A stretch of 64,000 nucleotides of DNA from a virus (IMGVR_UViG_3300021979_000004:64001-128000), one strand, 5' to 3'; shown: positions 1 through 43,962, counted from the stretch's first letter. Translations and numbers: made by a program. The notes: a model not told the origin generated them from the letters alone.

Positions 1-317
1 CATTATTTGAGTATAAAGGTGAAAATGGTATTCCAGAATCTGTAGGATTACAACTATCGCTTACTATCGAATTCCAAGATACAAGTGGAGAAGTTGTGTA
101 TAGAGTATTTAACTTAGATGGTAACAGTCCAAGTGTAGATTCATATTTCTATCCGCCTGCTAATGGGGAACCCGTTACAGTAGTATCTGATCCTGTTCCA
201 TCATCAGATATAAAATCGGTGGCGTTATTTAATAACTATGGCGCATCCCAACCCTTTAAAATAATTAATGCCGAACTGGTAAATCCTTTTGGTGAAGGTG
301 CCGAAGGCGGACCATAA
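1..317 (+). CDS. Hypothetical protein, 3' part (5' truncated by window edge), possibly virion-structural
   Basis: The frame of ORF 96..317 stays open back to position 3 (LFEYKGENGIPESVG...); beta-rich composition. Confidence 0.6.
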   Translation, partial: LFEYKGENGIPESVGLQLSLTIEFQDTSGEVVYRVFNLDGNSPSVDSYFYPPANGEPVTVVSDPVPSSDIKSVALFNNYGASQPFKIINAELVNPFGEGAEGGP

Positions 318-332
318 TTAAGGAGATTAAAA

Positions 333-650
333 ATGATTAATAGTTGCCAATTAGAATCTGTCGTAGAACGTTTAAATACTGCGTTTGAAAAAACAGAAAA
401 AGACTACGATAAAATTCTTAAAGATATTAGCTTAAATGAGTCTACGTTAATGAACAAGATTGAATCTGATCTGGATGACCTTTCTAGGAAGTTTGAGGCC
501 GCTAAGAGAGGACTTCAGCTTGTAAACAAGCTTTCCATGGGGATGACAAAACTAAAGCATACACAGCGTGTGATGAGCAATCTAAGCACTCTTAGAAGCA
601 GTATCTTAAACCTAGAGAAGAAGGTAAAAGAAATGCTTTCTAAAGCTTAA
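333..650 (+). CDS. Coiled-coil hypothetical protein
   Basis: AAGGAG RBS upstream; heptad-rich helical sequence. Confidence 0.7.
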   Translation: MINSCQLESVVERLNTAFEKTEKDYDKILKDISLNESTLMNKIESDLDDLSRKFEAAKRGLQLVNKLSMGMTKLKHTQRVMSNLSTLRSSILNLEKKVKEMLSKA

Positions 651-1021
651 ACAATGTGAACAAACTTCTTTAGAAATTGACTTTCATTATCCCTCATGTA
701 TTCATACTTCGAGGGATTTGTTATTTTAATGCGGTTATTATCGTGAACACTTATCAATAGTTTACAACGTATAACAAACTCTTTATAAACTGTGTCGTCG
801 GTAGGAATATAACTGGTAACCGTAGTACTATCTTTACTGCTTTCAAAACAATCAACCTGTACTTTGAAGCCACATGGTATTTGCATTACATCCTTAAAGT
901 ATTCTCGAATGTATTCCTGTATCAAGTGTTTGTAATCAGAAATGTCAGACGAAGCAGATTCATGGATAGAAACAATAACCATACCAAAATTGTAATAGTA
1001 ATGACGAAATTCTTCACTCAC
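647..1021 (-). CDS. KLKxP-motif family hypothetical protein
   Basis: C-terminal HDNNRIKITNPSKY; overlaps neighbours in a tight operon. Confidence 0.75.
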   Translation of the reverse strand: MSEEFRHYYYNFGMVIVSIHESASSDISDYKHLIQEYIREYFKDVMQIPCGFKVQVDCFESSKDSTTVTSYIPTDDTVYKEFVIRCKLLISVHDNNRIKITNPSKYEYMRDNESQFLKKFVHIV

Positions 1022-1347
1022 AAAAAGTCTTCCTTACATACTAATTGAGGGTGTTCTTTTCTCAAGTTTACATAAAGGTTCATATGTTTTAATTTAAAAT
1101 ATTGTAGAGAACGTTTATTTAAAAACTGTACTCTTATAACATATGCATCATAATGTCTACTGTAAAAAACATTCCCATAACTACTTTTAATTGTTGGATA
1201 GGTTATTTTAGTGAAAGCGTACCCGTAAAGTATTTGGTTGATACTTTTCACTTTCTGATTCATGTCATCTTCAGAAACATGATCAGGCTTCTTTATCTTG
1301 TAGTAATACGTCAGTTCTTTCTTCATTACTCGACAAATACCTTCCAA
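1018..1347 (-). CDS. KLKxP-motif family hypothetical protein
   Basis: C-terminal SLQYFKLKHMNLY. Confidence 0.75.
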   Translation of the reverse strand: MEGICRVMKKELTYYYKIKKPDHVSEDDMNQKVKSINQILYGYAFTKITYPTIKSSYGNVFYSRHYDAYVIRVQFLNKRSLQYFKLKHMNLYVNLRKEHPQLVCKEDFL

Positions 1348-1822
1348 GATATTTATCGTTTTGAGTAATGATCATCTTGTTGATTCTATTGGAATTGTCA
1401 AAGTTAAGCTCAAACACAACGTAAGATTCTATGGCTAACAAGGTATACCGTTTATGTTCACTATCTGCAATCACACAGTCTATAGACCTTGAGTTATCCA
1501 TATAATGCTGAACCTTAGAATCTGGGTCTGTTTGGCATCTTCGGAAAGATACAAACCCTTCGAAATCAGACATATCTCTTTTTGAAAAATGCTCCCTAAC
1601 TTCTCTGTAAATTTCTTCAGACACATTTTTACGATTAGAGTTATCCGAGACTTCAGGAATAAGTAAAGTAATCATCATAGAAAATAATACTTCAATTGAC
1701 GTGTCGCCTGTACGTATAAAAGAAACTGGCTTAAACTTTATATACTTGTCATGTATAGACATTTCACTGCATAATCCACCAGACCGGAGCAAACATTTAT
1801 GGTATAAGTTAAAATGTTTCAT
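1283..1822 (-). CDS. KLKxP-motif family hypothetical protein (weak motif)
   Basis: C-terminal RINKMIITQNDKY; start uncertain. Confidence 0.65.
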   Translation of the reverse strand: MKHFNLYHKCLLRSGGLCSEMSIHDKYIKFKPVSFIRTGDTSIEVLFSMMITLLIPEVSDNSNRKNVSEEIYREVREHFSKRDMSDFEGFVSFRRCQTDPDSKVQHYMDNSRSIDCVIADSEHKRYTLLAIESYVVFELNFDNSNRINKMIITQNDKYLGRYLSSNEERTDVLLQDKEA

Positions 1823-1823
1823 A

Positions 1824-2153
1824 TCAGATAACTCCCAAAAATACTATAATGTAGTCCTGCTCACCGTCGTTTTTTATATCACGTTTGTATAGTTCTAACA
1901 ATTCTATCTTGTTGAGAAGCTTAAGCTTATTGAATATTGAAGATTTCTTGTCATTGAATGTTACGGTAGCTTCCATACTACTAAGAATATCTTTTCGATC
2001 AAACATATCAGTCGCGTCTTCGTTTACTTCAACCGTTTCGACTGAAGAATTGCTAGGTAAAAAAGATGTTATCAAGTAATCTTGTATAAATCCTGCGGTA
2101 GGAGGTGCATCACTCCTAGCCACAAAATACATTTTAAACTTAAGCGTATACAC
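1824..2153 (-). CDS. KLKxP-motif family hypothetical protein
   Basis: IFNKLKLLNKIEL near the C-terminus. Confidence 0.7.
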   Translation of the reverse strand: MYTLKFKMYFVARSDAPPTAGFIQDYLITSFLPSNSSVETVEVNEDATDMFDRKDILSSMEATVTFNDKKSSIFNKLKLLNKIELLELYKRDIKNDGEQDYIIVFLGVI

Positions 2154-2545
2154 TAATCGATCACCTTCATTTTTGAAAACATTTGATACTCATCTGGGTT
2201 GGACAATTTAAACTTATTTAACTCTTTCTGTGACTCGAATGCTAACGTGACTACTGCGTCAATCTGCATATAACAGTCAAATGTACTGATGTAGTAATCA
2301 TCAATGTAGTAGTCTTCTATTGACATCATGCGGTATATATCATGTTTAAAATTGTCTGACAAAAATCGATCAATATGACACTCTGCTACTTCGTATATAA
2401 GGTCAACAAAAATTTCTGACCTAGCGAACTCTTCCGTAATAACTTCGTGGAAGGGTTCTGTAGCATCTAACATTATCTTTGCAGAAAGCGTTACCTTTTT
2501 AGATTCGGATGTCATAGCACTTCTTAATCTTATCGGCCAAGTCAT
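2153..2545 (-). CDS. KLKxP-motif family hypothetical protein
   Basis: C-terminal ELNKFKLSNPDEY. Confidence 0.8.
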   Translation of the reverse strand: MTWPIRLRSAMTSESKKVTLSAKIMLDATEPFHEVITEEFARSEIFVDLIYEVAECHIDRFLSDNFKHDIYRMMSIEDYYIDDYYISTFDCYMQIDAVVTLAFESQKELNKFKLSNPDEYQMFSKMKVID

Positions 2546-2876
2546 AGTTAATGAGTTTAATACGATTCAAATCAGATGCGTTGGAAATTTCGAATCCAAT
2601 CTTAACTTCACACTTACTTATAACGTTTCGCAAAACTTGTGGATAGCGACTAATTACAATTTTATCAAACCGCACTTCCTTACGGATATGATTTTCCAAT
2701 AACTCGTAAGCTTCGTCCATACTTTCCGATGACATTAGGTTGACTAACGACTTCAAGAACGTATGATCTGTGATACTGACAGGTAGGATAGGAGCCTTCA
2801 TCACACTAAACTTCATTCGAATAATATCATCTTTTTCAAGCTTCATAACTATTCCTCTTTTACAACATTGTAACAT
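2499..2876 (-). CDS. KLKxP-motif family hypothetical protein
   Basis: C-terminal DLNRIKLINYDLA; probable start MKLEKDD. Confidence 0.75.
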   Translation of the reverse strand: MLQCCKRGIVMKLEKDDIIRMKFSVMKAPILPVSITDHTFLKSLVNLMSSESMDEAYELLENHIRKEVRFDKIVISRYPQVLRNVISKCEVKIGFEISNASDLNRIKLINYDLADKIKKCYDIRI

Positions 2877-2896
2877 ATCGACTTAAGTAATGCACC

Positions 2897-3379
2897 TCAA
2901 TTAGGAAGAACCATATCAATATCTATTGAGTACATAGTGGGTCCAGTTCCTTTTAAAATCTCTTGGTATATTTTTGCGTTTTTTAATTTAGCATAATTAT
3001 GATTAGAAAAGTCAGCGATATTGAATTTCACAGTGCTATATATAATATAATCATCTACCCATTCGTTAGGTCGTACCAGTGTATGTTCCAAAGGCTTACC
3101 TTTAAGACCGTTATCATCGATCCATTTCTGAGACTCTTTAGTAATCTCTTTCATGAAGTTTTTAATAGCAGTATCTTCGTCTACACCTTTCTCGCCTTTG
3201 AGATAATTATGCAATGCAAGACTGATATCAAATAAATCATCCTCACCATTAGAAGGATCAACAGTCTCGTCACCAATGGTGATTTTTTTTATAGAAAAGT
3301 TTAAGGTGATAAGAATACTTTCTTTTTGTTCAACTACATATACAATATTACCATTGTCTAGCTTTACAACTTCAGGCAT
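2897..3379 (-). CDS. KLKxP-motif family hypothetical protein
   Basis: HNYAKLKNAKIY near the C-terminus. Confidence 0.75.
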   Translation of the reverse strand: MPEVVKLDNGNIVYVVEQKESILITLNFSIKKITIGDETVDPSNGEDDLFDISLALHNYLKGEKGVDEDTAIKNFMKEITKESQKWIDDNGLKGKPLEHTLVRPNEWVDDYIIYSTVKFNIADFSNHNYAKLKNAKIYQEILKGTGPTMYSIDIDMVLPN

Positions 3380-3900
3380 TAGTACTTCCCCATTATATAC
3401 CTTATTATGGATTCATTAGATAAGTCTTCTGATAAAACAGTATGAAGTGTTTTATCTTTTATCTTCATTAGATGTGCTTGCTTTTTAGGAATTTTAATAC
3501 AAATACGGTCGTATATTAGAAAACCAACTTCGTAAGCAAATGTCTGATGTATCTTTACTACACCTTGTCTGACAACATTTGAAAATGACGCAGAATGTTT
3601 CTGTCTGAATACATATGGTGATAGAAAGTCAGACATAGCAGAATACTCTTCATCCATACCCGAAACGACTTTTCTCTTTACTGTCATTTTGTAATCGTAT
3701 CCTTTTAGGAAATCCCTGATCATATTGTTTATCTTTCTATCTCGGTCTAGGTCTTTTACGAAGCTTTCTTTTAAGGTATTAACATATTTTTCAACTTTTT
3801 CTTCATTTTCAAAGTTATGATAATCGACATTTATCATTTCGTGGTCTACCATTTTTAGTAGATACATATAGTAATCTTCATTTTTCGATTTTATAGACAT
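3379..3900 (-). CDS. KLKxP-motif family hypothetical protein
   Basis: QAHLMKIKDKTLH near the C-terminus; TAATG coupling. Confidence 0.75.
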   Translation of the reverse strand: MSIKSKNEDYYMYLLKMVDHEMINVDYHNFENEEKVEKYVNTLKESFVKDLDRDRKINNMIRDFLKGYDYKMTVKRKVVSGMDEEYSAMSDFLSPYVFRQKHSASFSNVVRQGVVKIHQTFAYEVGFLIYDRICIKIPKKQAHLMKIKDKTLHTVLSEDLSNESIIRYIMGKY

Positions 3901-4190
3901 TATGATTTTATTTCCACTATGTTATCTAATTGTGACATGAACTTGATTTTAAACTTATTAACATTATAAGTATCAGGGAATTGTAAAATTACCGTGCATG
4001 ATATTCGATAATCATGGCATTCAGTTGCTGTTTTATCAAAAAGCATTGGGTGGACTGTACACAATCCATCAAATTCATCCCCAACCCTATCTGAAATCAT
4101 TTGACGAATTTTAAAATCACTAAGGTCGTCTGGGTCGGGGATATGGTAAGTTCCTTTATGTTCCATAAGGAACAATCGTTCATCACTCAA
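3900..4190 (-). CDS. KLKxP-motif family hypothetical protein
   Basis: NVNKFKIKFMSQL near the C-terminus. Confidence 0.75.
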   Translation of the reverse strand: MSDERLFLMEHKGTYHIPDPDDLSDFKIRQMISDRVGDEFDGLCTVHPMLFDKTATECHDYRISCTVILQFPDTYNVNKFKIKFMSQLDNIVEIKS

Positions 4191-4482
4191 CTTCTCTCTC
4201 CCTTATTTCATCTTCAAGTAAATTATATAAGTCAGGCTCTTTCATTTTAAGTAAGTTGAGCTTATTCTTTTCGAAATACAAGGTGAACCAAATATCAAAA
4301 ATAGATTGCTTTCTATCTCTCATATCCATATACATTTTCTTTTCTATAATGCAGTATTTTGAGAACTGTTCATTGATGGTATCAGAAGCATTACTCATTT
4401 CTGTACCTAAATCTACCTGCTTTATTTTTGCAATGCGATAATAGTTTATCACTGTTACGCATGTATATTTTGTAATAGTCAT
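4183..4482 (-). CDS. KLKxP-motif family hypothetical protein
   Basis: KLNLLKMKEPDLY. Confidence 0.8.
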   Translation of the reverse strand: MTITKYTCVTVINYYRIAKIKQVDLGTEMSNASDTINEQFSKYCIIEKKMYMDMRDRKQSIFDIWFTLYFEKNKLNLLKMKEPDLYNLLEDEIREREVE

Positions 4483-4895
4483 AACTTTAACTTGTTTAAT
4501 AAATGTAACCTTTCGGAAAATAATTCATTATATGTTTTGGGGTTTTTCAACTTATATAAGTTCATTTCACGGTCAGATTCAAACGTAAAACGAAACTCTA
4601 TATACATTGCTTTATTAGGGAAAGAATACGCGCTGGTTAATGATTCAAGATATTCACTATTATATCCCATAGAAACAACTTCAAAGCTATCTGTGTCAGT
4701 CAATGACTTAATTAATGACTGACACACCCAATCCATACCTATATCTTCAGGTTTCATATCGTGCACATCGACACCATATAATTCCATGATACGGGCAGCA
4801 ATTACTTTTTCAGGAACTAGTGTGCCAAGTATTTTCGAGTTTATGTTCTCAAACATTTCACTTTCATTCAAGACCGGCTTTTTTACGCAACGCAT
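4479..4895 (-). CDS. KLKxP-motif family hypothetical protein
   Basis: EMNLYKLKNPKTY. Confidence 0.8.
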   Translation of the reverse strand: MRCVKKPVLNESEMFENINSKILGTLVPEKVIAARIMELYGVDVHDMKPEDIGMDWVCQSLIKSLTDTDSFEVVSMGYNSEYLESLTSAYSFPNKAMYIEFRFTFESDREMNLYKLKNPKTYNELFSERLHLLNKLKL

Positions 4896-5460
4896 TTACT
4901 GTTCCTCTGTCGTCAATACTATCTTTTGATTCTTGTATTATAACTTTATTAAACCATTCTTTGATTTTTTCTTCATTCTCATTATATTCGCCATTGAACA
5001 AACCGATATTTGTTAGTTCTGGATGCTTGAGCTTAAATTGGTTTTTATGTTTTCCTTCCTTGAGTCTTAGCTTATACGTATGTACTACCATCACATAGAC
5101 TGTGGTGGACTCTGCATAAAACTCATCGTCGTCATCGTCATCCCACGAATGAGATTCGACTTCACTGTGAACCGCTATGTTACGATCAACATCAATGTAT
5201 GATCCATATCTTTCTTCAATGATATCTGCAACTTTTTTTGAATAGTGGTTTACAAAACCACCATAAGCTTTTTCACAACGTTCACAAAAATCATCAATAA
5301 AGAATGCACGACATTCCTTTGTTCCATAGTGTATACGAAATCGCCTAAAACGCTTCAGTATCAGTTGTTCATTTTCATCATAACCACTTTCTTCGTCACG
5401 TTGATTAAGATACTCTATATACGGCGTTGGAGTTAACAACTCTACATTGATTGAATCCAC
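4864..5460 (-). CDS. KLKxP-motif family hypothetical protein
   Basis: HKNQFKLKHPEL; acidic poly-Asp tract. Confidence 0.8.
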   Translation of the reverse strand: MDSINVELLTPTPYIEYLNQRDEESGYDENEQLILKRFRRFRIHYGTKECRAFFIDDFCERCEKAYGGFVNHYSKKVADIIEERYGSYIDVDRNIAVHSEVESHSWDDDDDDEFYAESTTVYVMVVHTYKLRLKEGKHKNQFKLKHPELTNIGLFNGEYNENEEKIKEWFNKVIIQESKDSIDDRGTVNALRKKAGLE

Positions 5461-5930
5461 TCTTTATACTCCCAATAAGCCATTCTTTTATCAATACATT
5501 CTTGGTGAACAAACGCAGTAACAACTTCGAATGATTCGTCATACAAGTCATCACGGTAATGTTTTCCGTGTTTCAATTTTATACGATTGAGGGATTCCTT
5601 GTCAACGGTATTGGCCGTTATGATAGTGTTATAAACATAGGAATCATATATTCTTGTGGCAATCATATGCTCATCACCGTCGTCATCAACCTCTTGTTTT
5701 TTATCAAAATACTCTAAGAAGTCAGGATCATTAAAGAAAAGCTTAGACATAGCATGATTATTAGCTTTCATATAATCAGCAAACTGTCCATAACTAAGAT
5801 TTACCGACGACTTATAATCATCGACGTAATCTATATCAATACGTTTCAATGTGGTTTCAGTATTATCCTCATTAACTTCTTCAATGTAGTAGAGAAAGCA
5901 CATGTAATGCTCGTCGTCTACTTTAATCAT
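5442..5930 (-). CDS. KLKxP-motif family hypothetical protein
   Basis: SLNRIKLKHGKHY. Confidence 0.8.
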   Translation of the reverse strand: MIKVDDEHYMCFLYYIEEVNEDNTETTLKRIDIDYVDDYKSSVNLSYGQFADYMKANNHAMSKLFFNDPDFLEYFDKKQEVDDDGDEHMIATRIYDSYVYNTIITANTVDKESLNRIKLKHGKHYRDDLYDESFEVVTAFVHQECIDKRMAYWEYKEWIQSM

Positions 5931-6268
5931 AAGTATTCTCCTACTAAATCGTGAACCCCGTATCTTTCACTGTTGTACGGAATTTCATATGGTTTTTCAT
6001 TAGGCGCTGATCTAAACTTTTGATATAGGTCAGGATATTTTAATTTGATTTTTCTAAACAATACTTCATTAAAAATTTCAACATCCATACTAACGTAACA
6101 TAGAGGATACGCTTTTGTTCCTCGAACTTCAATATCTGTAATTAAAATAAAAGAACAGTTTAATAGTTCTTCTAAAAACCCATGGTACTCAATCAATAGT
6201 TGTGACTTAAGCCACTCTGGGTTTTTGTAACCCAACAATATAATTCTATGCTTTGTTTCAAATATCAT
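5927..6268 (-). CDS. KLKxP-motif family hypothetical protein
   Basis: LFRKIKLKYPDLY. Confidence 0.8.
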   Translation of the reverse strand: MIFETKHRIILLGYKNPEWLKSQLLIEYHGFLEELLNCSFILITDIEVRGTKAYPLCYVSMDVEIFNEVLFRKIKLKYPDLYQKFRSAPNEKPYEIPYNSERYGVHDLVGEYL

Positions 6269-6677
6269 CAGTATCTTCGACTCTATAATCCTTGTAATAA
6301 TTTGGGTCTTTCAGTTTTATCAAGTTAATATTTTTACTACCCTTTGCTACAACCGCTTTTATAAAATATGTTACTGTGATGGTGTTGGGAGAGTCAAGCC
6401 TTCTCATGCCAGTATGACCCCAATTAGCTTCTACGTTTATAAAATCCATTTGTGATTCTCTAGAATACGAAACCGGATCGCAAATAATTTCTATTGGTTT
6501 TAGTTCATATCTAGCCCACAATTCTATAGCAGCTTGCTTTTTAACTTTTTTAATAATAGACTCTGCCATTAGGCATTCTTTTTCACTACTATTAAGCAAC
6601 AGTTCTACATCACTACCAGTGAACATGTCAGGAGTAATGCAAAAAACTATTGTATGTGGTCTGTATAATATTTTCAT
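6258..6677 (-). CDS. KLKxP-motif family hypothetical protein
   Basis: NINLIKLKDPNYY. Confidence 0.8.
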   Translation of the reverse strand: MKILYRPHTIVFCITPDMFTGSDVELLLNSSEKECLMAESIIKKVKKQAAIELWARYELKPIEIICDPVSYSRESQMDFINVEANWGHTGMRRLDSPNTITVTYFIKAVVAKGSKNINLIKLKDPNYYKDYRVEDTDDI

Positions 6678-7108
6678 GTTTTATGTGAGCAATCTATCCC
6701 ATAGAAATACGAACCGTCACTGGTTGAAAAGTTTGCATATTTATGATTAATTAGCTTAGTCATAAAGTTATTTTGAATCTTTAATCTGTTAAAAGATTTG
6801 TTAGAAATCCACACTTTATAACACAACGTAAATGTACAGCATATCCCATCTGCTATAAAAAAGTATTCTGATCTAAAGTTTTCGGATAATTCAAAATCAT
6901 CGAAATCATCTACGAGCCAATCAGGTAAGCCACTATTATCAAAAACATAATTACGATTTTTGAATTCCCATTCTCTAATTATCTGGCTCATGTTTTTTAT
7001 AATTGAAACTTTCTTGAATTCCATAGGTATGAGAACATTCATTACTCGGAATTTTAGATACAAAAAGTTTTCATTGCTTGAAACTAAAGAAGGTTTGGTA
7101 GTAGTCAT
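6674..7108 (-). CDS. KLKxP-motif family hypothetical protein
   Basis: SFNRLKIQNNFM. Confidence 0.7.
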   Translation of the reverse strand: MTTTKPSLVSSNENFLYLKFRVMNVLIPMEFKKVSIIKNMSQIIREWEFKNRNYVFDNSGLPDWLVDDFDDFELSENFRSEYFFIADGICCTFTLCYKVWISNKSFNRLKIQNNFMTKLINHKYANFSTSDGSYFYGIDCSHKT

Positions 7109-7475
7109 AATCCTTGATCTTTAACAAACGTAATTCGTTTTCACTTAGAGAAAGCTTGATTATTCCAGTTACATTAAAGTATAGCATAGCCCTTTGATTC
7201 TGTCCGGTGTTTACTTCACTTGACGCTATACTAAAGCTATTTGTCGTCAACGGGCTTACACATTCTAGAATTGCGCCATACTCTATATCATTCTGATATG
7301 CATGACCGTGTTCAATTAAAAACTTTAAATCAACACGATGTTTATATGCTTCCTCATAGTAATGGTTTGGATCGCCACACTTAGCTTTGTAATGTTGTTC
7401 TTGTATCTCATTACGTATAAAATTCGTGCTAGCTTTATACATAAATGTTCGATAAAGATTTATTGTTTTATCCAT
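7071..7475 (-). CDS. KLKxP-motif family hypothetical protein (first gene of the array)
   Basis: ELRLLKIKDYDYY; the track start at 7541 overlaps the promoter, so MDKTINL (about 7475) is the more likely start. Confidence 0.7.
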   Translation of the reverse strand: MDKTINLYRTFMYKASTNFIRNEIQEQHYKAKCGDPNHYYEEAYKHRVDLKFLIEHGHAYQNDIEYGAILECVSPLTTNSFSIASSEVNTGQNQRAMLYFNVTGIIKLSLSENELRLLKIKDYDYYQTFFSFKQ

Positions 7476-7512
7476 ATTTTTATAATGTGAGTAATGGAAT
7501 TCCCAACCTAAG

Positions 7513-7541
7513 AATATACTCCTAGAGCCTTGTACTGTCAA
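7513..7541 (-). promoter_or_regulatory. sigma70-type early promoter for the 17-gene array
   Basis: Minus strand TTGACA-17 nt-TATATT. Confidence 0.75.
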
Positions 7542-7545
7542 GGTC

Positions 7546-7553
7546 TATAAATA
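7546..7553 (+). promoter_or_regulatory. T4-like late promoter
   Basis: TATAAATA 25 nt upstream of the AGGAG-ATG start of the terminase fragment. Confidence 0.75.
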
Positions 7554-7578
7554 ATGTTATAGATTTATAGGAGTGATC

Positions 7579-7908
7579 ATGAAATCTAATGAGAAGTATG
7601 AAATCTTAACGCCCACAGGATGGAAAGATTTTACAGGCGTTGAATATACTGGAATGAAACAAACATTGAAGATTACCTTAGATTCGGGTAAAGATATTGT
7701 ATGCACCCCAGAGCATAAACTGAAAGTTAATGACAAATATCTTACCGCAGAAAAGATTAAAGTTGGAGACACGATATCATCTGTGTCTTCGGATGTCCAT
7801 AAAGTAACTTCAATAACTGAACATGGAACATCTGCCTGCTATGATTTGGTAAATGTAGAAAATGATGATCACTCTTTTGTAATTCAAAATGATTTAATAT
7901 CTAGTAAC
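7579..7908 (+). mobile_element. Atypical split intein, C-fragment (IntC, 110 aa)
   Basis: Has block B CTPEH, block F CYDLVNV and block G ISSN/C but no block A; start EILTPTGWKDFTG resembles AceL-TerL IntC as I recall it. Confidence 0.8.
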
Positions 7909-9663
7909 TGCGATGAGCTTGCATTCGTTAACAAACGTATTGCTCTCGAATTCTGGACCTCTGTATTCCCCACTCTTTCCTGTGTAACTTACGATACTAT
8001 TATCCTGACTAAAGATGGTTTCATGAGAATTGGAGACGTTTTCAAAGATGTTGATTATAAACCGGGAGACTATTTCACCTTAGATAATTTCGAAGTATGG
8101 GGTAAGTATGGATTTGAAAAAGTATCACATGGTTATATCTCACCAAGTTCCGAAACTGTCATTGTTAGTCTGAAGAATGGACAGTCAGTTGAAGTAACAA
8201 AAGACCATCCATTGTTTGCTAACCGTAATGGTGGTGAAATGGTTCGTGCTGAAGATTTAAAAGTTGGTGATAAACTACGCGTAGATAAAGGCATGATGGT
8301 CGATTTCGGTGGGTTTACAGATTTCAAATGTTTAATTGAAACGGCACACGAAAATCCTGAAATAATACTTAATATGAGCTTCGAATGTTTCAAAAACCTT
8401 ATAGATTTCTTAGACTATAAAATTTATTGCGACAATCAACAAATGATGAATTGCTTTACGCAGGTTCTTAATAACTATGGGTATAATTATGAGTGTAAAG
8501 TTACTACGTTACACGTAAAAGAATGTGTTAGACAATATCGAACTGAATGGGTTGATATCGAATATATTTCCCAAGGCTGTACTAAAGTAACTTATGACTT
8601 TACGGTTCCTGCAACAAAAAGCTTTTTACAAAATGGTATTCTGGGTAGTAACACTGGCGGTTCATGTATTATCACTTCCACACCTACGGACGATGAAACT
8701 CTATTCGCTGACATATGGAAGAAAGCCAATGAAACTATGGATGAGTTCGGTAACACCACTGAGGTAGGTAGTAATGGTTTCAAAGCACTAAAAGTAAAGT
8801 GGGATGAACACCCTGATCGCGGTGAAGAATTCAAAGATTTAATGATTAAGCAGTTTGGTGAAGAGAAATTCAGACGTGAACATGAACTTGATTTCGTTGC
8901 AGAAGATGAAACCCTAATATCACCATTGTACTTGAGTGAAATGAAACACCAAGAACCTATAAAGAAAACAGGTCAGGTAAGATGGTATAAAAAGCTTGAT
9001 CGCAATAAAGTTTATTTTATAGGCTATGATCCAAGTCTAGGTACTGGTGGCGATAACTCTGCTATTCAAATATTTGAATTTCCAAGTATGGAACAAGTAG
9101 GTGAGTGGATGCATAATAAATCTGACGTTCCTACACAATTAAAAGTGTTGAAAAATATACTTAAAATGTTCGAGGATGCCGGTTTCGAAGAAGACAATGT
9201 ACGTTGGACTCTCGAAAATAATTCCATTGGTGAAGCACCATTGGTTCTTATTGAAGAATATGGTGAAGACGAATTCTTTGGATACTTCATGAGCGAACCA
9301 TACAATCCACGTCAACCTAGAGCGCGTTCTAGATTCAGAAAAGGGTTCAATACCAGCAACAGTAGTAAGCTTACTGCGTGTACTCGTTTCAAGCGTTGGG
9401 TTGAGAATGATAAGATGTTAATACATAGTAAGCCTATGATTAAAGAACTAAAAGGTTTCGTATCTCGTGGTAGAACATATAAAGCACGTGCTGGTGATAA
9501 CGATGACTTGGTTATGGCTACACTTCTATGTGTGAGGATGGCTATGATTACTATGCAGGAAGAAGATGAGTATATGGATGCGCTTGGTGTAGGCAATGAG
9601 ATAGATGACACTGAAAGTGATGACGATAGTGATTGGGATCAGCCATTGCCGGTTGTATTTTAA
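7579..9663 (+). CDS. terL: Large terminase C-terminal half (Walker B, coupling motif, RNase H-like nuclease) fused to an N-terminal split-intein C-fragment and containing a cis intein
   Basis: CDELAF Walker B, IITSTP motif C, FIGYDPSLG and DDLVMA nuclease motifs; no Walker A; in-frame TAA at 7552-7554; AGGAG RBS before ATG 7579. Confidence 0.9.
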   Translation: MKSNEKYEILTPTGWKDFTGVEYTGMKQTLKITLDSGKDIVCTPEHKLKVNDKYLTAEKIKVGDTISSVSSDVHKVTSITEHGTSACYDLVNVENDDHSFVIQNDLISSNCDELAFVNKRIALEFWTSVFPTLSCVTYDTIILTKDGFMRIGDVFKDVDYKPGDYFTLDNFEVWGKYGFEKVSHGYISPSSETVIVSLKNGQSVEVTKDHPLFANRNGGEMVRAEDLKVGDKLRVDKGMMVDFGGFTDFKCLIETAHENPEIILNMSFECFKNLIDFLDYKIYCDNQQMMNCFTQVLNNYGYNYECKVTTLHVKECVRQYRTEWVDIEYISQGCTKVTYDFTVPATKSFLQNGILGSNTGGSCIITSTPTDDETLFADIWKKANETMDEFGNTTEVGSNGFKALKVKWDEHPDRGEEFKDLMIKQFGEEKFRREHELDFVAEDETLISPLYLSEMKHQEPIKKTGQVRWYKKLDRNKVYFIGYDPSLGTGGDNSAIQIFEFPSMEQVGEWMHNKSDVPTQLKVLKNILKMFEDAGFEEDNVRWTLENNSIGEAPLVLIEEYGEDEFFGYFMSEPYNPRQPRARSRFRKGFNTSNSSKLTACTRFKRWVENDKMLIHSKPMIKELKGFVSRGRTYKARAGDNDDLVMATLLCVRMAMITMQEEDEYMDALGVGNEIDDTESDDDSDWDQPLPVVF
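7981..8652 (+). mobile_element. Cis intein (224 aa) with degenerate endonuclease remnant
   Basis: Block A CVTYDT, block B VTKDHP, block F TYDFTV, block G LGSN/T. Confidence 0.88.
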
Positions 9664-16060: not shown

Positions 16061-16378
16061 TTACATATAATATTTCTCAACGATTTTCATTAAATCGTCA
16101 AATGTATCTGCATATTTCTCAAATGGTGGCATATCATTATGGCGTTTTTGATTTATGATATAAGTCATTTCTTCTTCGGATCGGTGCCAGCACTTTTCAC
16201 AAGGTATGAAGCCGGTTCCCATAAATGGATTGTCGTCACCTCGTGTGTCCTTAACAATAAGTCCATGAGGGCCATCGCACTCGACATGTTCTTTAATACA
16301 GCACTCTGGATAACCGTATAAAGTACCAAACAACCACCCACGTTCTTTATAGTCCATTTCCTTGAATGTTTTACTCAT
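16061..16378 (-). CDS. Cys-motif hypothetical protein (GYPECC ... GFIPCxxC)
   Basis: Probable metal-binding Cys clusters. Confidence 0.65.
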   Translation of the reverse strand: MSKTFKEMDYKERGWLFGTLYGYPECCIKEHVECDGPHGLIVKDTRGDDNPFMGTGFIPCEKCWHRSEEEMTYIINQKRHNDMPPFEKYADTFDDLMKIVEKYYM

Positions 16379-16923
16379 TAGTATTTACCACCGTTTTTAT
16401 TACTGTATTTCCGGTAAGCTTCCCAAATGTCGTCTGATGGTAAATGTTCATCTTCGTCTTTTACATAATCATCATAGTTATACATCGACTTTATAATTTC
16501 TTCTTTCTGCTTAAGAGCTTCCGTATACTTGTCTTTCATTGCAGTTATCATTTTTACTTTTTCTAAATACTGCCTTTCTTCTTCACGTTGCCTTGCTCGA
16601 CTATCGTCAAAGAACTTTGGATTAGACATCTTCATGAAATTTCTGGCTTTTACAAATGAATCTGAGTCACCACATACTTTCTCAATGGTTGAAACATCTT
16701 CAATATGCTCCACTGACTTCATGATATCTATCATTGTTGAACGATTTATTGCATTTCCTACGTTTGGTCGTACATCGTCTTCAAGGTAACCAAATGCCCC
16801 ATCTACTGATACCTTACTCATTTCAAGACAGGATTTTACTAAATCATTAACTTCATCAATACTGTTTGTTCTTACTAAGGAATTGATAGCCATTCCTAAA
16901 ATCTTTTCACTATCTTTAGCCAC
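16378..16923 (-). CDS. Helical hypothetical protein
   Basis: ORF track; coupled to neighbours. Confidence 0.65.
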   Translation of the reverse strand: MAKDSEKILGMAINSLVRTNSIDEVNDLVKSCLEMSKVSVDGAFGYLEDDVRPNVGNAINRSTMIDIMKSVEHIEDVSTIEKVCGDSDSFVKARNFMKMSNPKFFDDSRARQREEERQYLEKVKMITAMKDKYTEALKQKEEIIKSMYNYDDYVKDEDEHLPSDDIWEAYRKYSNKNGGKY

Positions 16924-17527
16924 GGAATCCTCCTAGCGATTTCATAGTTGGTATATCACATGCTGATAATACCTCAATTCTACACTGATCCGACCTGACT
17001 TTTTCAGGTACGCTTGAAAACAAAATTTCTATTCTCAATAGTTCAACATTAATTTTCCCCGGTGTATCCATACCACCAAGTAATGTACAATTAGGTTTTT
17101 TCAATTTTAAATAATTTAACGTCCTTTTAATATCTTCAGAGTCTTTATTTATAACAAATACAGACTCCAAATCTATAAGATAAAAACCATCGTAAACATC
17201 TTCCAACATAATAAACTTTGCAATAATCTTGTTGCTGATTAATGGACCATAGTTACCTAACCCAAAGCAATAGTGGTTATTCAGAACATAACTTATGTAA
17301 TGCTTTATTAGGTCTTCTTTAATAACCCTTTCAGTGCAATATGCCATTGCATTTTCGAATGTATCTCCCTTATCAATCATATCCTTGCAGATTGCTAGAA
17401 TTGTGTAAATTCTAGTAGATTGTAAAGCTTTACGATATTTCTCAAGTGGTGCAAAATTTATGCCATATTTCAAGTTATTTCTAACATTCTTAGCTATAAC
17501 TTTTTTGAATGTATAAATGTCCATCAC
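16916..17527 (-). CDS. Paralog triplet member with KLKxP motif
   Basis: KRTLNYLKLKKP. Confidence 0.75.
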   Translation of the reverse strand: MMDIYTFKKVIAKNVRNNLKYGINFAPLEKYRKALQSTRIYTILAICKDMIDKGDTFENAMAYCTERVIKEDLIKHYISYVLNNHYCFGLGNYGPLISNKIIAKFIMLEDVYDGFYLIDLESVFVINKDSEDIKRTLNYLKLKKPNCTLLGGMDTPGKINVELLRIEILFSSVPEKVRSDQCRIEVLSACDIPTMKSLGGFRG

Positions 17528-17955
17528 ACGAATACCTTAGTCTTGGGACTTTTGATTTTCATATAGTTTAGTGCTTTCTTCACACAATTGGTATTTCTTA
17601 GTATTTCCCAAATAAGAACACCTTGACTATCTTTGCCCAACGCTGAACTTAGATATATCCCATTAGGGAAGTTCGTGGTTATATCACATGAAATAGCCTT
17701 TTTAATAAGAGCTTCAGCGAAAGTTGGTGTGAATATTAAATGAATATTTTCCTTAACAATCTTTGGTATGTAGCAACCTGTCAAACGATATAGAACCATG
17801 TCAATTACCATATCATTTTCAATGATACGCTTTCGGACTATGTTAAAAACATTGTCTCTAGACTTTCCTTGTGTTTTCCGTACCAAGGAATCCTCTATAA
17901 GGCGCATAGATTGATAGATGTAAAGCATACGATGTTTTGAATTAGATATTTCCAA
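17524..17955 (-). CDS. Paralog triplet member with KLKxP motif
   Basis: KKALNYMKIKSP. Confidence 0.75.
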   Translation of the reverse strand: MEISNSKHRMLYIYQSMRLIEDSLVRKTQGKSRDNVFNIVRKRIIENDMVIDMVLYRLTGCYIPKIVKENIHLIFTPTFAEALIKKAISCDITTNFPNGIYLSSALGKDSQGVLIWEILRNTNCVKKALNYMKIKSPKTKVFV

Positions 17956-38646: not shown

Positions 38647-38961
38647 TTACAACGTATTTTCGTAAACAGGATCATCGTTTTTGGTCATTTCTTTGAAGAA
38701 CTCTTCAGCATCTTCAACAGTGTCAAAGTCCATGCCTTCATATTCTTCAAAGCTAGGCTCAGCGTCACAGAACTCATACTGTCCATCTTCTTTCTTCTCA
38801 AGCTTACCAATACGAGTACCACCGTGAATAGTAACGGTATAATCGTCTTCATCTTTAATAACAGCAGCCACGTCTAATGGATTCTCACGTGTAGCATTTT
38901 CTACAAGCTGAATCATTTCTTTCATGTTTTTCATAATATTTTTTCCCTTGTTATGTACCAT
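38647..38961 (-). CDS. Acidic hypothetical protein
   Basis: ORF track; likely start MKNMKEMIQLVE. Confidence 0.65.
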   Translation of the reverse strand: MVHNKGKNIMKNMKEMIQLVENATRENPLDVAAVIKDEDDYTVTIHGGTRIGKLEKKEDGQYEFCDAEPSFEEYEGMDFDTVEDAEEFFKEMTKNDDPVYENTL

Positions 38962-39454
38962 TATTTAGGGAATGTGTGAAATCTGACATTATTAATAGTC
39001 TTCCACCAAAGGCTTCAGACAAAAACTTATACATGCTACGATTAGAAATCTTAACACGGTTTAGTGCATCTTTGTTTACATTAAAAACAATTCTGGTCAC
39101 ATAGTATTCATCAAAGTGAATCTGATGCGTTACAGGGCATGAAGGATAACCAACCAATTCTGACGAAGATAATCCTAACTTAAAATCTTTCTTATCAATC
39201 TCTTGCTCAAGATAACATTGAAAGTTCACTAGGGCTTGATGCTCAAAATTAGAAAGATCATCCAGTGTATCATATCCCATACGCTTAACTTCGTTCGCAG
39301 ATGCACATAGAAAAAGAACTGAATGTTGGGCACTACGACTGTTTTTAGGTTTTACAATCTCAGGTTTACAATCCATATCATTCACCGTTAATAAGTTCAT
39401 CCAGAATATCTTCCAACCATTTTTCACGCTCTTGATATTCCTTTTCATGATCAC
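38951..39454 (-). CDS. KLKxP-motif family hypothetical protein
   Basis: RIVFNVNKDALNRVKISNRSMY; likely start MDCKPE. Confidence 0.7.
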   Translation of the reverse strand: MIMKRNIKSVKNGWKIFWMNLLTVNDMDCKPEIVKPKNSRSAQHSVLFLCASANEVKRMGYDTLDDLSNFEHQALVNFQCYLEQEIDKKDFKLGLSSSELVGYPSCPVTHQIHFDEYYVTRIVFNVNKDALNRVKISNRSMYKFLSEAFGGRLLIMSDFTHSLNNGT

Positions 39455-40910: not shown

Positions 40911-41626
40911 ACATTATCTCCAAATCGTTTGCGATATTCTCTCATAATTTTACTGTGTCGGTTTTTATTGACATGATACCGCTCTAGGTTTATACCGTTG
41001 AGCTTGTCGTACATTGTACAAACAATGTAATCCATATGTCCATCATAAACTTTGTCAACAAACACTTTAGAAGGAATTGATTTGTTTAATCTGATTTTTT
41101 TGAAATCATAAGCCCTTCCTTCAGTAGTCTCAGTGACAACCGGACAGGATACTGAATAAGTATAGCGTGTGCCTTTTGTTACCTCACGCTTGTAAGCTAC
41201 CTTACTTGCAATTTTATTTTTATCTAAATCCCCAACCAAGCGGGTATAGATATGCATGATTCTTGGACTAACTTCGACAAGATTACCATGATAGCAATTC
41301 TTAGAATTACCATCTACATGTAAAATATTTCCAGTAGGCCAATCTCCATAAACCAAAAGCCAGATCAAACGACTTCGTAGCATTTTATATTGCTTACCAT
41401 TGAGTTTAAAATCTACTGTAAGGTATTCGTATGTTGCACCAGTTGGGGTAGTCATAACTTGTGAAGTTAGGGGTAAAGGACGATCAAAATACTTCTTACC
41501 TATAGCACTTACGGAGTATGGCGTGTTTTTATTATAAAACAAACTACCAGTTCCATCGTAATAATAATGCGCTAAACAAAATTGTTTCAGTCGTTCATTG
41601 TCTTCTTTATTCCTTAGTCGGGGCAT
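40907..41626 (-). CDS. Degenerate HNH endonuclease-like protein
   Basis: RSRLIWLLVYGDWPTGNILHVDGNSKNCYHGNL resembles HRLxW...IDHIDGNxxNN. Confidence 0.6.
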   Translation of the reverse strand: MPRLRNKEDNERLKQFCLAHYYYDGTGSLFYNKNTPYSVSAIGKKYFDRPLPLTSQVMTTPTGATYEYLTVDFKLNGKQYKMLRSRLIWLLVYGDWPTGNILHVDGNSKNCYHGNLVEVSPRIMHIYTRLVGDLDKNKIASKVAYKREVTKGTRYTYSVSCPVVTETTEGRAYDFKKIRLNKSIPSKVFVDKVYDGHMDYIVCTMYDKLNGINLERYHVNKNRHSKIMREYRKRFGDNV

Positions 41627-42123
41627 TATTCTATCCTCATAAGTTTATCAATCGTATATCCAGTAATCTTATGATACACATTTGGTATTTTAATTTTTAG
41701 ATAATTAAGATCATGTTTATTAATGGCAACCTTATAGCGAACGATTACCATATAAGAGTTCATGTTAACTTCTGTCTGTACTCGGTTTTCTAGAAAAGGA
41801 ATACCTTTCTTACAATAAGGCTTTATTACATCAATCATGCCATTTAGATGACCTCGGACAAATTCATCCAATTTATTAAAATGCTCATCCCTTCCTGTAT
41901 TATATGTTTCAGTCATGAACTGGTTATGAAAGGTGTACATTGTGCTTGTAACATGAATCGCAATACTAGTCCGATCTACCATCCAATCCTTTATATAAGA
42001 ATTAAATTCCTCACGGCTATGATTGGACATCAAATCATCTACGTTAAGATTTTCGATATCACCGGATTCTAGCTGTTGCCACGCTCTTTTAATTCTTTCT
42101 CTTTCTGAACTATTCTCCGACAT
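41626..42123 (-). CDS. KLKxP-motif family hypothetical protein
   Basis: DLNYLKIKIPNVY. Confidence 0.75.
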   Translation of the reverse strand: MSENSSERERIKRAWQQLESGDIENLNVDDLMSNHSREEFNSYIKDWMVDRTSIAIHVTSTMYTFHNQFMTETYNTGRDEHFNKLDEFVRGHLNGMIDVIKPYCKKGIPFLENRVQTEVNMNSYMVIVRYKVAINKHDLNYLKIKIPNVYHKITGYTIDKLMRIE

Positions 42124-42478
42124 TACAAAAAACCTTTTGATTGTATTGACCCGAAACTGTATCTAGATATTGTTCCATGCTTTTTAGTTTCCAAAAATTT
42201 GCTTCACGGCTTGATATGGATAAACTGACTCTTACTAACGTATGATTATCATCAACAATACCATCACCGTAAAACAGGTTATTTGAGGCATACTTCGCGA
42301 ATGATGAGAGATTTCTAACATCACGCTTGTAAATCCTAGACATTGATCTTTGCGCACGTACCTTTACACCATAAAACTTTAAAAATGATTTTTCAACACC
42401 ATCACAGGCTTTATTGATGATCATGTTACCATCTTTAGAAACAAGGTCTACGCGTACAATTACCTTAAACTCTTTCAT
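42110..42478 (-). CDS. KLKxP-motif family hypothetical protein
   Basis: EANFWKLKSMEQY. Confidence 0.7.
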   Translation of the reverse strand: MKEFKVIVRVDLVSKDGNMIINKACDGVEKSFLKFYGVKVRAQRSMSRIYKRDVRNLSSFAKYASNNLFYGDGIVDDNHTLVRVSLSISSREANFWKLKSMEQYLDTVSGQYNQKVFCNVGE

Positions 42479-43542: not shown

Positions 43543-43962
43543 TTAAGTCAAAAATCTTGTATGTTTTAACTTAAAATGATTTTTCGTGTTATTGTTAGTG
43601 AATTCCAAATTTATCATAAAGTAAATATTTTTCACATTCATAGATGATCTTAACTGTTCAAGCAAATCATCAAAGTCTTCTTCAAAGTTATAAATTTTCT
43701 CAACCCAAGCATTATTTGATGTCATACTATCCGCAAGGGTTTCTACTAGAAAGCCACTATAGATATCCTCACGCTTAAACAACTCCATTGGTAGAAATTG
43801 AGTCATTGCAAACGTTGGCTCAACTGAAAGGTTTAGATTATTATCTTTAATAATTTGTTCCAACTCATAGGCATCAAAAAACAACATCAAGAAGTTTTTA
43901 TCTTCTTTCTCCCAGAGTTTAGTATACATAATACTATTTGTTATCTCATGATTATAAAGCAT
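43543..43962 (-). CDS. KLKxP-motif family hypothetical protein
   Basis: Ends INLEFTNNNTKNHFKLKHTRFLT. Confidence 0.7.
   Translation of the reverse strand: MLYNHEITNSIMYTKLWEKEDKNFLMLFFDAYELEQIIKDNNLNLSVEPTFAMTQFLPMELFKREDIYSGFLVETLADSMTSNNAWVEKIYNFEEDFDDLLEQLRSSMNVKNIYFMINLEFTNNNTKNHFKLKHTRFLT

What the first reader, a model, noticed from the sequence alone, without database searches (positions are those of the whole stretch)
647..7541. Array of 17 co-transcribed genes whose products share a C-terminal LNxxKLKxPxxY module
Seen directly: the consecutive, translationally coupled minus-strand ORFs (about 96-198 aa) have no obvious N-terminal similarity. About 14 of them clearly, and the rest weakly, carry the same element near the C-terminus: an alternating hydrophobic beta-strand, a short helix, then N-x-(I/F/Y/L)-K-(L/I/M)-K-x-P-x-x-Y. 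Examples: LAFESQKELNKFKLSNPDEY, FTFESDREMNLYKLKNPKTY, LYFEKNKLNLLKMKEPDLY, EIFNEVLFRKIKLKYPDLY, KNINLIKLKDPNYY, SLNRIKLKHGKHY. One sigma70 promoter (7513-7541) heads the array. Inference: variable N-terminus plus constant docking tag is the architecture of an adaptor or effector repertoire, analogous to poxvirus ANK/F-box proteins. The tag could bind one common partner (the phage ClpP or HslV-like protease, a host chaperone, RNA polymerase, or a packaging factor) while the variable parts engage different host targets such as defence proteins. I know no named family for it.
Basis: partly seen in the sequence, partly recalled or inferred. Interest (0 to 1): 0.92.

Follow-up and report, generated by a model that had tools for sequence, protein, structure and literature searches.

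The report
Expanded family of small phage proteins
An uncultured jumbo phage gives about a tenth of its genes, including a 17-gene early operon, to one undescribed family of small proteins that share only a 30-residue strand-helix-helix block near the C-terminus; the family is real and new, but its function is not known.

Summary
Seventeen tightly packed minus-strand genes (647-7475/7541) all carry the block: hydrophobic beta-strand, N-cap, [LF]-N-x-phi-K-[LI]-K-x-P-x-x-Y. A block-only HMM finds 34 ORFs in the 218-kb phage contig against 0 in shuffled ORFs. Synonymous codons vary, so conservation is at protein level. The N-terminal parts show no similarity by phmmer, leave-one-out HMM or profile-profile comparison.

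The family is wider than reported. There are at least 32 paralogs in this genome (about 9% of ORFs), an array of 20 or more in another metagenomic phage contig, and seven genes in cultured Salicola phage SCTP-2. Pfam, PHROGs, NCBIfam and PDB give no match. Only 19 hits appear among 1.84 billion representative proteins.

The "detachable docking tag" reading is weakened. AlphaFold puts the block inside a compact ferredoxin-like alpha+beta domain, where it is the best-predicted part. The SCTP-2 paralogs are similar over their full length, which points to whole-gene duplication. Orthologous arrays are syntenic and under purifying selection throughout.

The sigma70-type promoter hexamers are invariant in a diverged relative, so this is probably an early operon. 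My best reading is a lineage-specific expansion of early effector-like proteins with one constant and one variable face. The scan noted the same stretch once before, on the same DNA only.

The parts
7513..7541 (-). sigma70-type promoter heading the array (TTGACA-17 nt-TATATT)
   Evidence: Best promoter-like match in 1-8000, 11 of 12. It lies in the 97-nt spacer between g17 and terL. Both hexamers are invariant in relative L015, while the spacer and 5'UTR carry substitutions and coding dS is above 1.
7071..7475 (-). g17, family member (134 aa from ATG 7475; listed ORF reaches TTG 7541)
   Evidence: Block at 7089-7181...LSENELRLLKIKDYDYYQ. Ortholog in L015 at 73% identity.
6674..7108 (-). g16, family member (144 aa; orthologs suggest a start at 7042, 122 aa); weak motif
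   Evidence: Block at 6749-6841...SNKSFNRLKIQNN. Leave-one-out 1/100. dN/dS 0.12 against L015.
6258..6677 (-). g15, family member (139 aa)
   Evidence: Block at 6285-6377...KNINLIKLKDPNYY. dN/dS 0.08.
5927..6268 (-). g14, family member (113 aa)
   Evidence: Block at 6014-6109...FRKIKLKYPDLY.
5442..5930 (-). g13, family member (162 aa)
   Evidence: Block at 5547-5642...SLNRIKLKHGKHY. dN/dS 0.07.
4864..5460 (-). g12, family member (198 aa, GTG start)
   Evidence: Block at 5002-5097...KNQFKLKHPEL. Its ortholog is 199 aa.
4479..4895 (-). g11, family member (138 aa)
   Evidence: Block at 4521-4616, FTFESDREMNLYKLKNPKTY. AlphaFold model has pLDDT 60 overall and 82-88 in the block.
4183..4482 (-). 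g10, family member (99 aa), the minimal domain
   Evidence: Block at 4216-4308. AlphaFold: pLDDT 77, pTM 0.60, topology b1-a1-b2-b3-aA-aB, block pLDDT about 93. dN/dS 0.04.
3900..4190 (-). g09, family member (96 aa)
   Evidence: Block at 3918-4013...NVNKFKIKFMSQL. 86% identical to its ortholog.
3379..3900 (-). g08, family member (173 aa); weak motif (H in place of N)
   Evidence: Block at 3433-3525...AHLMKIKDKTLH. Leave-one-out 2/100.
2897..3379 (-). g07, family member (160 aa)
   Evidence: Block at 2957-3052...NHNYAKLKNAKIY. dN/dS 0.18.
2499..2846 (-). g06, family member (115 aa from ATG 2846; listed ORF reaches 2876)
   Evidence: Block at 2526-2621...DLNRIKLINYDL. Ortholog P0005 starts at the equivalent of 2846.
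2153..2545 (-). g05, family member (130 aa)
   Evidence: Block at 2177-2272, LAFESQKELNKFKLSNPDEY. Best block score, E 2e-10.
1824..2153 (-). g04, family member (109 aa); weakest motif
   Evidence: Block at 1890-1985...IFNKLKLLNK. Leave-one-out 8/100.
1283..1822 (-). g03, family member (179 aa); K to I at the near-invariant Lys
   Evidence: Block at 1340-1435...INKMIITQNDKY. Ortholog P0008 at 82%.
1018..1347 (-). g02, family member (109 aa; probably 102 aa from ATG 1326)
   Evidence: Block at 1063-1158...LQYFKLKHMNLY. dN/dS 0.12 against L018.
647..1021 (-). g01, last gene of the array (124 aa)
   Evidence: Block at 695-787...NNRIKITNPSKY. dN/dS 0.14 against L018.
16916..17527 (-). dispersed family member (203 aa) inside a second small cluster
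   Evidence: Iterated family HMM E 1e-11. Block ...RTLNYLKLKKPN.
38951..39454 (-). dispersed family member (167 aa)
   Evidence: Family HMM E 2e-16.
41626..42123 (-). dispersed family member (165 aa)
   Evidence: Family HMM E 6e-17. Block ...DLNYLKIKIPNVY.
42110..42478 (-). dispersed family member (122 aa)
   Evidence: Family HMM E 2e-8. Block ...ANFWKLKSMEQY.
43543..43962 (-). probable member (139 aa)
   Evidence: First-round family HMM E 0.0014. C-terminus reads ...IYFMINLEFTNNNTKNHFKLKH.

Best explanation
The array is the largest cluster of a lineage-specific multigene family: at least 32 copies here, about 9% of ORFs. The family occurs in a small clade of SCTP-2-like jumbo phages.

Each gene encodes one small, soluble, compact alpha+beta protein with a ferredoxin-like layout: b1-a1-b2-b3-aA-aB, and a further strand after aB in the longer members. 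The conserved block is not a free tail. It is the central strand b3 plus the kinked helix pair packed on the sheet.

The family grew by whole-gene tandem duplication. After duplication, the b1-a1-b2 half and its inserts diverged beyond recognition between paralogs. The b3-aA-aB half kept its core residues and a near-invariant polar set: Asn, Lys at +3, and often Lys at +5 and Pro at +7. Each paralog is then held by purifying selection in related phages.

The operon is read early from a host sigma70-type promoter.

Inferred, not shown: these are early host-directed effector proteins (host takeover or counter-defence). They would have one constant face that meets a shared partner or ligand and one variable face that gives each paralog its own target.
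For: Shown:
- The family is real and far above chance, and conservation is at protein level.
- Conservation is extremely uneven between paralogs.
- Logo from 66 instances in four phage lineages: N 56/66, K+3 65/66, L/I+4 63/66, K+5 42/64, P+7 31/60, Y+10 31/47.
- The g10 model (pLDDT 77, pTM 0.60) places the block as b3-aA-aB of a single domain at pLDDT about 93. The weaker g11 model has the same order of elements.
- The minimal members have only 53-59 residues before the block.
- At least 19 of 32 members show a hydrophobic strand-like segment after aB (alignment).
- The six SCTP-2 paralogs align over residues 1-150 at E 1e-18 to 1e-5, and one L013 sub-cluster keeps N-terminal similarity. Both point to whole-gene duplication.
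- Orthologous arrays in L015-L018 are gene-for-gene syntenic. dS is above 1 and dN/dS is 0.04-0.40.
- Ortholog identity is 65% in the N-part, 73% in the block and 67% in the tail.
- The promoter hexamers are invariant in L015. No TATAAATA lies inside the array, while terL next door has one.
- sigma70-like sites also precede the 182-184 kb trio and the 304-aa motif-bearing protein.

Inferred:
- The effector role rests on early-type promoters, small orphan genes, tandem expansion and varied charge (pI 4.6-9.5).
Against: - No function was tested.
- Only two members were modelled, one poorly (pLDDT 60), and b1 of the good model is itself low (pLDDT 53-58).
- Fold searches give only generic alpha+beta sandwiches (Z <= 5.9, TM about 0.5), so 'ferredoxin-like' describes the topology and is not a match.
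- I had no coordinates, so I did not measure whether N, K and K are exposed.
- Low dN/dS and stable synteny do not look like a current arms race.
- The logo is biased, because members were found with a model that rewards those residues.
- The motif helix also occurs at the very C-terminus of a 304-aa protein without the aB part. That fits a portable motif better than a fold core.
- Expression timing is inferred from promoter sequence only.
Confidence: 0.5

Rival explanations
1. Detachable docking module. Unrelated N-terminal domains are each fused to a portable C-terminal module that plugs into one hub (protease, chaperone, RNAP or packaging factor), as with poxvirus ANK/PRANC adaptors.
For: N-terminal parts show no detectable homology by any test, while the block is recognised at E 1e-5 to 1e-10. 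The conserved residues are polar. The helix part of the motif ends a 304-aa protein and is invariant in orthologs down to 52% identity. There is an excess of weak block hits, three of them at the C-terminal end of 304-382-aa proteins: 8 hits at E 0.01-0.2 against about 1 expected.
Against: A 30-residue strand-helix-helix unit cannot fold alone, and in the g10 model its strand pairs within the same chain. No linker separates it from the rest. The minimal proteins are 96-99 aa in total. The SCTP-2 paralogs are homologous over their full length. No known docking domain matches. No partner was identified.
Confidence: 0.2
2. Conservation is purely structural. The block is the folding nucleus of a fast-evolving small fold, there is no common partner, and the paralogs have unrelated or minor functions.
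For: Most conserved positions are hydrophobic or capping residues: the alternating strand, an S/D/N N-cap, phi at -1, +2 and +4, Pro at a helix start, and Tyr. The block is the best-predicted part of both models. The fold class is generic.
Against: Lys at +3 in 65 of 66 instances and Asn in 56 of 66, across paralogs that share nothing else, is more than folding usually demands. Ferredoxin-like families rarely keep surface Lys or Asn. The motif is kept at the end of a 304-aa protein that lacks the rest of the block.
Confidence: 0.2
3. A family of nucleic-acid-binding regulators. The strand-helix-helix block would work like a ribbon-helix-helix dimer, or the sheet like an RRM surface, with the Lys residues contacting phosphates.
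For: The strand-helix-turn-helix order and size resemble RHH (sequence inspection). Lys residues are conserved. Strands b1 and b3 are rich in aromatics.
Against: No RHH or RRM model matches at E<=0.1. The model pairs the strand within the chain, not across a dimer. Strand residues are largely hydrophobic on both faces. Half the members are acidic, with pI 4.6-6 and net charge down to -17.
Confidence: 0.07
4. Virion-packaged internal or ejected proteins that share a packaging signal, as T4 internal proteins share a capsid-targeting sequence.
For: Variable proteins with one short shared element recall the T4 IP loci (established knowledge). The array lies next to terL.
Against: The array has a sigma70-type promoter and no late TATAAATA promoter. 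The shared element is C-terminal and folded, with no conserved protease-type cleavage site. Members are scattered among clusters of small early-type genes.
Confidence: 0.03

Closest known systems
Lineage-specific expansions of small domains in jumbo phages (for example about 35 zinc-ribbon copies in Bacillus phage G; Iyer et al. 2021, PMC7824862)
   Same: Tens of paralogs of one small domain in one jumbo-phage lineage, function unknown, proposed regulators or conflict proteins.
   Different: The domain here has no known family. Only its C-terminal half is recognisable between paralogs. Half of the copies sit in one 17-gene operon. The paper does not mention this family.
Poxvirus ankyrin/PRANC (F-box-like) host-range proteins
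   Same: A viral multigene family with a variable target-binding part and a constant C-terminal element. This is an analogy of architecture only.
   Different: No ANK repeats and no PRANC or F-box match. The constant element here is predicted to be part of the same small domain, not a separate one. No hub partner is known.
Phage T4 internal proteins (IPI-III and polymorphic IP loci) sharing a capsid-targeting sequence
   Same: Unrelated or diverged small proteins in a T4-related phage that share one short conserved element (established knowledge, not tested here).
   Different: The T4 signal is N-terminal, about 10 residues, and cleaved by the prohead protease. Here the element is C-terminal, about 30 residues, folded, and the operon has an early-type promoter.
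Early-gene 'hyperplastic regions' of T4-superfamily phages and the SPO1 host-takeover module
   Same: Tightly packed small orphan genes behind host-type early promoters, thought to act on the host (established knowledge).
   Different: Those clusters are mixtures of unrelated genes. Here all 17 are paralogs, and the array is stably syntenic between relatives.
Ferredoxin-like alpha+beta sandwiches (ribosomal protein S6, DABB/ABM, MinE-like)
   Same: Predicted order b-a-b-b-a(-b) with helices on one face of the sheet. These proteins fill the weak structural hit lists.
   Different: Z <= 5.9 and TM about 0.5 are within the background for such small folds. There is no sequence match. The second helix is split by an N/D-P kink, and the short members lack the last strand.

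Membership tests
Poxvirus-type ANK/PRANC adaptor | N-terminal ankyrin repeats | tested here: not met
   Pfam scan of all 17 at E<=0.1 gives no ANK family.
Poxvirus-type ANK/PRANC adaptor | C-terminal PRANC/F-box-like domain that binds Skp1 | tested here: not met
   No PRANC or F-box match. Bacterial hosts have no SCF. Binding could not be tested.
Ribbon-helix-helix DNA-binding proteins | Sequence match to an RHH family model | tested here: not met
   No RHH family at E<=0.1 in Pfam or NCBIfam. The PDB profile search has no RHH entry.
Ribbon-helix-helix DNA-binding proteins | The strand forms an intermolecular two-stranded ribbon in an obligate dimer | tested here: inconclusive
   The monomer model pairs the strand with b2 of the same chain. 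No dimer was modelled.
Ferredoxin-like alpha+beta sandwich fold | b-a-b-b-a-b order with helices on one face of an antiparallel sheet | tested here: inconclusive
   g10 has the order b1-a1-b2-b3-aA-aB. A strand-like segment follows aB in at least 19 of 32 members. Best structural matches are only Z 5.9 and TM about 0.5.
T4 internal proteins with a capsid-targeting sequence | Shared N-terminal targeting peptide ending in a prohead-protease site | tested here: not met
   N-termini share nothing. The shared element is C-terminal.
T4 internal proteins with a capsid-targeting sequence | Presence in the virion | not testable with these tools
   Needs mass spectrometry of virions, for example of SCTP-2.
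Lineage-specific tandem multigene family (descriptive class) | Many paralogs in one lineage, in tandem, few or none in sister lineages | tested here: met
   At least 32 copies here. 20 or more on L013 and 7 on SCTP-2. None in PA5oct and one marginal hit in Atu_ph07. 19 hits in 1.84 billion representatives.
Lineage-specific tandem multigene family (descriptive class) | Origin by whole-gene duplication | tested here: met
   SCTP-2 paralogs are similar over their full length, and an L013 sub-cluster keeps N-terminal similarity. For the window's own 17 genes this is inferred.

The most novel reading that the evidence does not exclude
The roughly 35-40 paralogs form a phage adaptor repertoire. Every member presents the same invariant Asn/Lys/Lys surface of the b3-aA-aB element to one hub, which could be a host or phage machine such as a protease, chaperone or polymerase, or the members could bind one another as mixed oligomers. 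The diverged half of each member would recruit or block a different host target. This would be a bacterial-virus counterpart of poxvirus ANK/PRANC or ASFV multigene families. The same motif at the C-terminus of larger proteins would be a minimal form of the docking element.
Probability: 0.15. Interest if true: 0.85.

Novelty: new variant of a known kind. Interest (0 to 1): 0.55.

Why it matters
Jumbo phages are full of orphan genes, and here about one gene in ten belongs to a single unannotated family. Defining the family gives a handle on a large block of this clade's unannotated genes: a 30-residue signature, a minimal 96-99-aa domain, and conserved Asn and Lys residues to mutate. One carrier, Salicola phage SCTP-2 (genes 340-345 and 348), is cultured, so the family can be studied at the bench.

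The pattern is one half frozen across all paralogs and the other half diverged beyond recognition, yet each paralog is conserved between phages. That is the pattern expected of proteins with a shared function and individual targets. If a common partner exists, it would point to a central host or phage process that this clade manipulates in many ways.

If no partner exists, the family is still a clear natural example of how far sequence can drift within one small fold.

Tried and rejected
- **DNA-level motif (promoter, terminator or RNA element inside the genes):** rejected. Synonymous codons vary freely, and the distance from the motif Asn to the end of the protein ranges from 19 to 66 codons.
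- **Chance in Lys/Asn-rich ORFs:** rejected.
- **Known families:** Pfam, PHROGs, NCBIfam and a PDB profile search gave nothing credible. The best PDB row, the Npl4 ubiquitin-like domain at E 0.19, is not significant.
- **Language-model atlas search:** one unnamed viral cluster at 0.76, below the useful range.
- **Fold searches with the poor g11 model** were meaningless. With the g10 model, five libraries gave only generic alpha+beta sandwiches.
- **N-terminal homology:** sought by phmmer, leave-one-out HMM, hhalign of ortholog profiles and the SCTP-2 N-terminal profile. None was found.
- **tblastn of the three largest paralogs against 50,697 phage records:** no match.
- **Megablast of the region against phages:** no match.
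- **Larger motif-bearing proteins (304, 344 and 382 aa):** no Pfam or PHROG family.
- **Literature:** no description of the family.
Dimerisation and transcription therefore remain untested.

Full report
**Setting.** The window is bases 64001-128000 of a 217,982-bp IMG/VR virus record, estimated 73% complete, with about 34% G+C. By large-terminase similarity the closest named phage is Salicola phage SCTP-2 (52% identity over 96% of the protein), followed by the PA5oct group and Atu_ph07. This is an uncultured jumbo myovirus of the distant T4-like group. A protein 99% identical to g10 lies on a 401-kb contig, so the complete genome may be about 400 kb.

**The observation.**
- Seventeen minus-strand ORFs fill 647-7541 with overlapping or abutting stops and starts.
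- In a leave-one-out test of the 32-residue block, 29 of 32 genome members beat all 100 of their own shuffles. Within the array 14 are clear and g04, g08 and g16 are weak.
- A block-only HMM finds 34 ORFs at E<=0.01 in the genome and none in a five-fold shuffled ORF set.
- Codons at the conserved residues vary synonymously, so a nucleotide-level element is excluded.
- The N-terminal parts give no cross-hit by phmmer at E<=10. Leave-one-out scores equal shuffles. hhalign probabilities between ortholog-based profiles are at most 2%.

**The family is larger than the finding.**
- Iterated HMM searches of all ORFs of the genome converge on 32 members, about 9% of roughly 361 non-overlapping ORFs.
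- Dispersed members in the window lie at 16916-17527, 38951-39454, 41626-42123 and 42110-42478, with a probable one at 43543-43962.
- Weaker variants bring the total towards 40.
- Outside this genome the family is rare. A profile search of 1.84 billion representative proteins gave 19 hits. Most of those I compared are orthologs from related metagenomic phages.
- A 51.7-kb Logan contig (L013) carries at least 20 tandem members, another contig type (L010) carries four, and SCTP-2 carries genes 340-345 plus 348, all annotated 'hypothetical protein'.
- PA5oct has none and Atu_ph07 has one marginal hit.
- From 66 instances the signature is N 56/66, K(+3) 65/66, L/I(+4) 63/66, K(+5) 42/64, P(+7) 31/60, Y(+10) 31/47. 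These counts are inflated by the way members were found.

**What the proteins look like.**
- Pfam, PHROGs, NCBIfam and a PDB profile search give nothing.
- AlphaFold2 on g11 with 51 sequences was poor (pLDDT 60) except in the block (82-88).
- On the 99-aa g10 with 70 sequences it reached pLDDT 77 and pTM 0.60. The topology is b1(5-10), a1(25-40), b2(44-56), b3(59-71), aA(72-81), aB(83-97).
- The conserved block is b3 + aA + aB and is the most confident part (about 93). The N/D-P step is the kink between the two helices. The S/D/N before the motif is the helix N-cap.
- In most paralogs a second strand precedes b3 as a hairpin (sequence inspection). At least 19 of 32 have a hydrophobic strand-like stretch after aB. 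That would complete a b-a-b-b-a-b, ferredoxin-like layout.
- Five structure libraries returned only generic two-layer alpha+beta proteins (MinE, S6, DABB/ABM) at Z <= 5.9 or TM about 0.5, within background. The viral library also ranked several proteins with A0A248S-series accessions near the top. I take these to be SCTP-2 paralogs from the accession series and their sizes, but this was not checked.
- The fold assignment is therefore descriptive only. I had no coordinates and could not measure burial.

**How the family evolved.**
- The six SCTP-2 paralogs align over their whole length (E 1e-18 to 1e-5), and an L013 sub-cluster retains N-terminal similarity. The family therefore grows by whole-gene tandem duplication.
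- In the window's array the duplications are old. Contigs L015-L018 from other samples carry the same genes in the same order, one to one, from g17 to g01.
- Synonymous sites are saturated (dS above 1) and dN/dS is 0.04-0.40.
- Ortholog identity is nearly as high in the N-terminal part (65%) as in the block (73%).
- Each paralog is thus individually maintained. The N-terminal halves differ between paralogs but not between phages. This argues against pseudogenes and against a currently fast arms race. It argues for 17 distinct conserved functions built on a common element.

**Expression.**
- The best sigma70-type match of the region (TTGACA-17-TATATT, 7541-7513) lies in the 97-nt spacer shared with the divergent terL gene, which has a T4-type late TATAAATA box at 7546-7553.
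- In L015 both hexamers are invariant, while the spacer and the 5'UTR have changed. I read this as a sequence footprint of a working promoter.
- There is no TATAAATA and no predicted terminator inside the array.
- Similar sites precede the 182-184 kb trio and the 304-aa protein.
- Early transcription by host RNA polymerase is therefore likely, but it is inferred.
- Promoter-like sites as a class are not enriched (39 against 40 expected).

**Interpretation.**
The 'docking tag' as a separable unit is not supported, for four reasons:
  - The block needs a partner strand.
  - It is modelled inside one domain.
  - The smallest proteins have no room for a second domain.
  - The SCTP-2 copies are full-length homologs.
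- Two facts keep a shared-interaction idea alive.
  - The conserved positions include polar Asn and Lys residues that a fold alone seldom fixes.
  - The helix part (F-x-N-K-M-K-L-K) ends a 304-aa protein and is invariant in orthologs down to 52% identity.
- I therefore favour a single small domain with one constant and one variable face, made early and acting on the host (confidence 0.5 for the package).
- The rivals are a detachable module (0.2), purely structural conservation (0.2), nucleic-acid binding (0.07) and virion cargo (0.03).
- Charges range from -17 to +9, which speaks against a uniform DNA-binding or DNA-mimic role.

**Novelty and score.** Lineage-specific expansions of small domains are known in jumbo phages, for example about 35 zinc ribbons in phage G (PMC7824862). 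This family, its signature and its scale are not described in the libraries or papers searched. I rate it a new variant of a known kind, interest 0.55. It is a solid, testable family with a cultured carrier, but with no demonstrated function. Nothing similar was noted on other DNA.

Noticed in passing
window 16378-18422 (minus strand): A second small cluster of four genes next to member 16916-17527. The genes at 17524-17955 and 17958-18422 end in a variant motif KK[AS][LI]NY[MV]KIK.P (block HMM E 3e-4 and 1e-3), and the gene at 16378-16923 has ARNFMKMSNPKFF mid-protein (E 0.012). This is probably a diverged subfamily.
   Followed up: partly
L021:299-1213 (genome 146299-147213) and window 30651-31685; genome 176081-177229: Three larger proteins (304, 344 and 382 aa, no Pfam or PHROG family) carry the helix part of the motif in their last 10-30 residues. 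In the 304-aa protein, ...RDFANFINKMKLK[HY]GV is invariant in four orthologs down to 52% identity.
   Followed up: partly
window 7573-9663 (+): The large-terminase ORF starts with a Hint/intein-like sequence. PA5oct-type terminases match only residues 360-677, whereas SCTP-2 matches residues 6-673. Other first-reader notes call this a split-intein terminase. I did not examine it.
   Followed up: no
window 7476-7572: A 97-nt divergent control region holds a T4-type late box TATAAATA (7546-7553, + strand, for terL) five bases from the -35 hexamer of the early-type promoter of the array. It is almost fully conserved in L015 although coding dS is above 1.
   Followed up: partly
window 5576-5605 (minus strand): A second 11-of-12 sigma70-like match (TTGACA-18-TAAAAT) lies inside g13. 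It could be an internal promoter or chance.
   Followed up: no
L013:330-13256: A 51.7-kb Logan contig from another sample holds about 30 same-strand small genes, of which at least 20 carry the block. This is a longer array of the family than the one in the window, and only 13 kb of it was read.
   Followed up: partly
P0024 (99% identical to g10): This protein is on record on a 401,220-bp contig, so a near-complete genome of this phage, about twice the length of the IMG/VR record, probably exists in the public assemblies.
   Followed up: no
window 333-650 (+): A convergent 105-aa, apparently helix-rich ORF ends at 650 and overlaps the stop of g01 (647-649). No terminator is predicted between the two converging units.
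   Followed up: no
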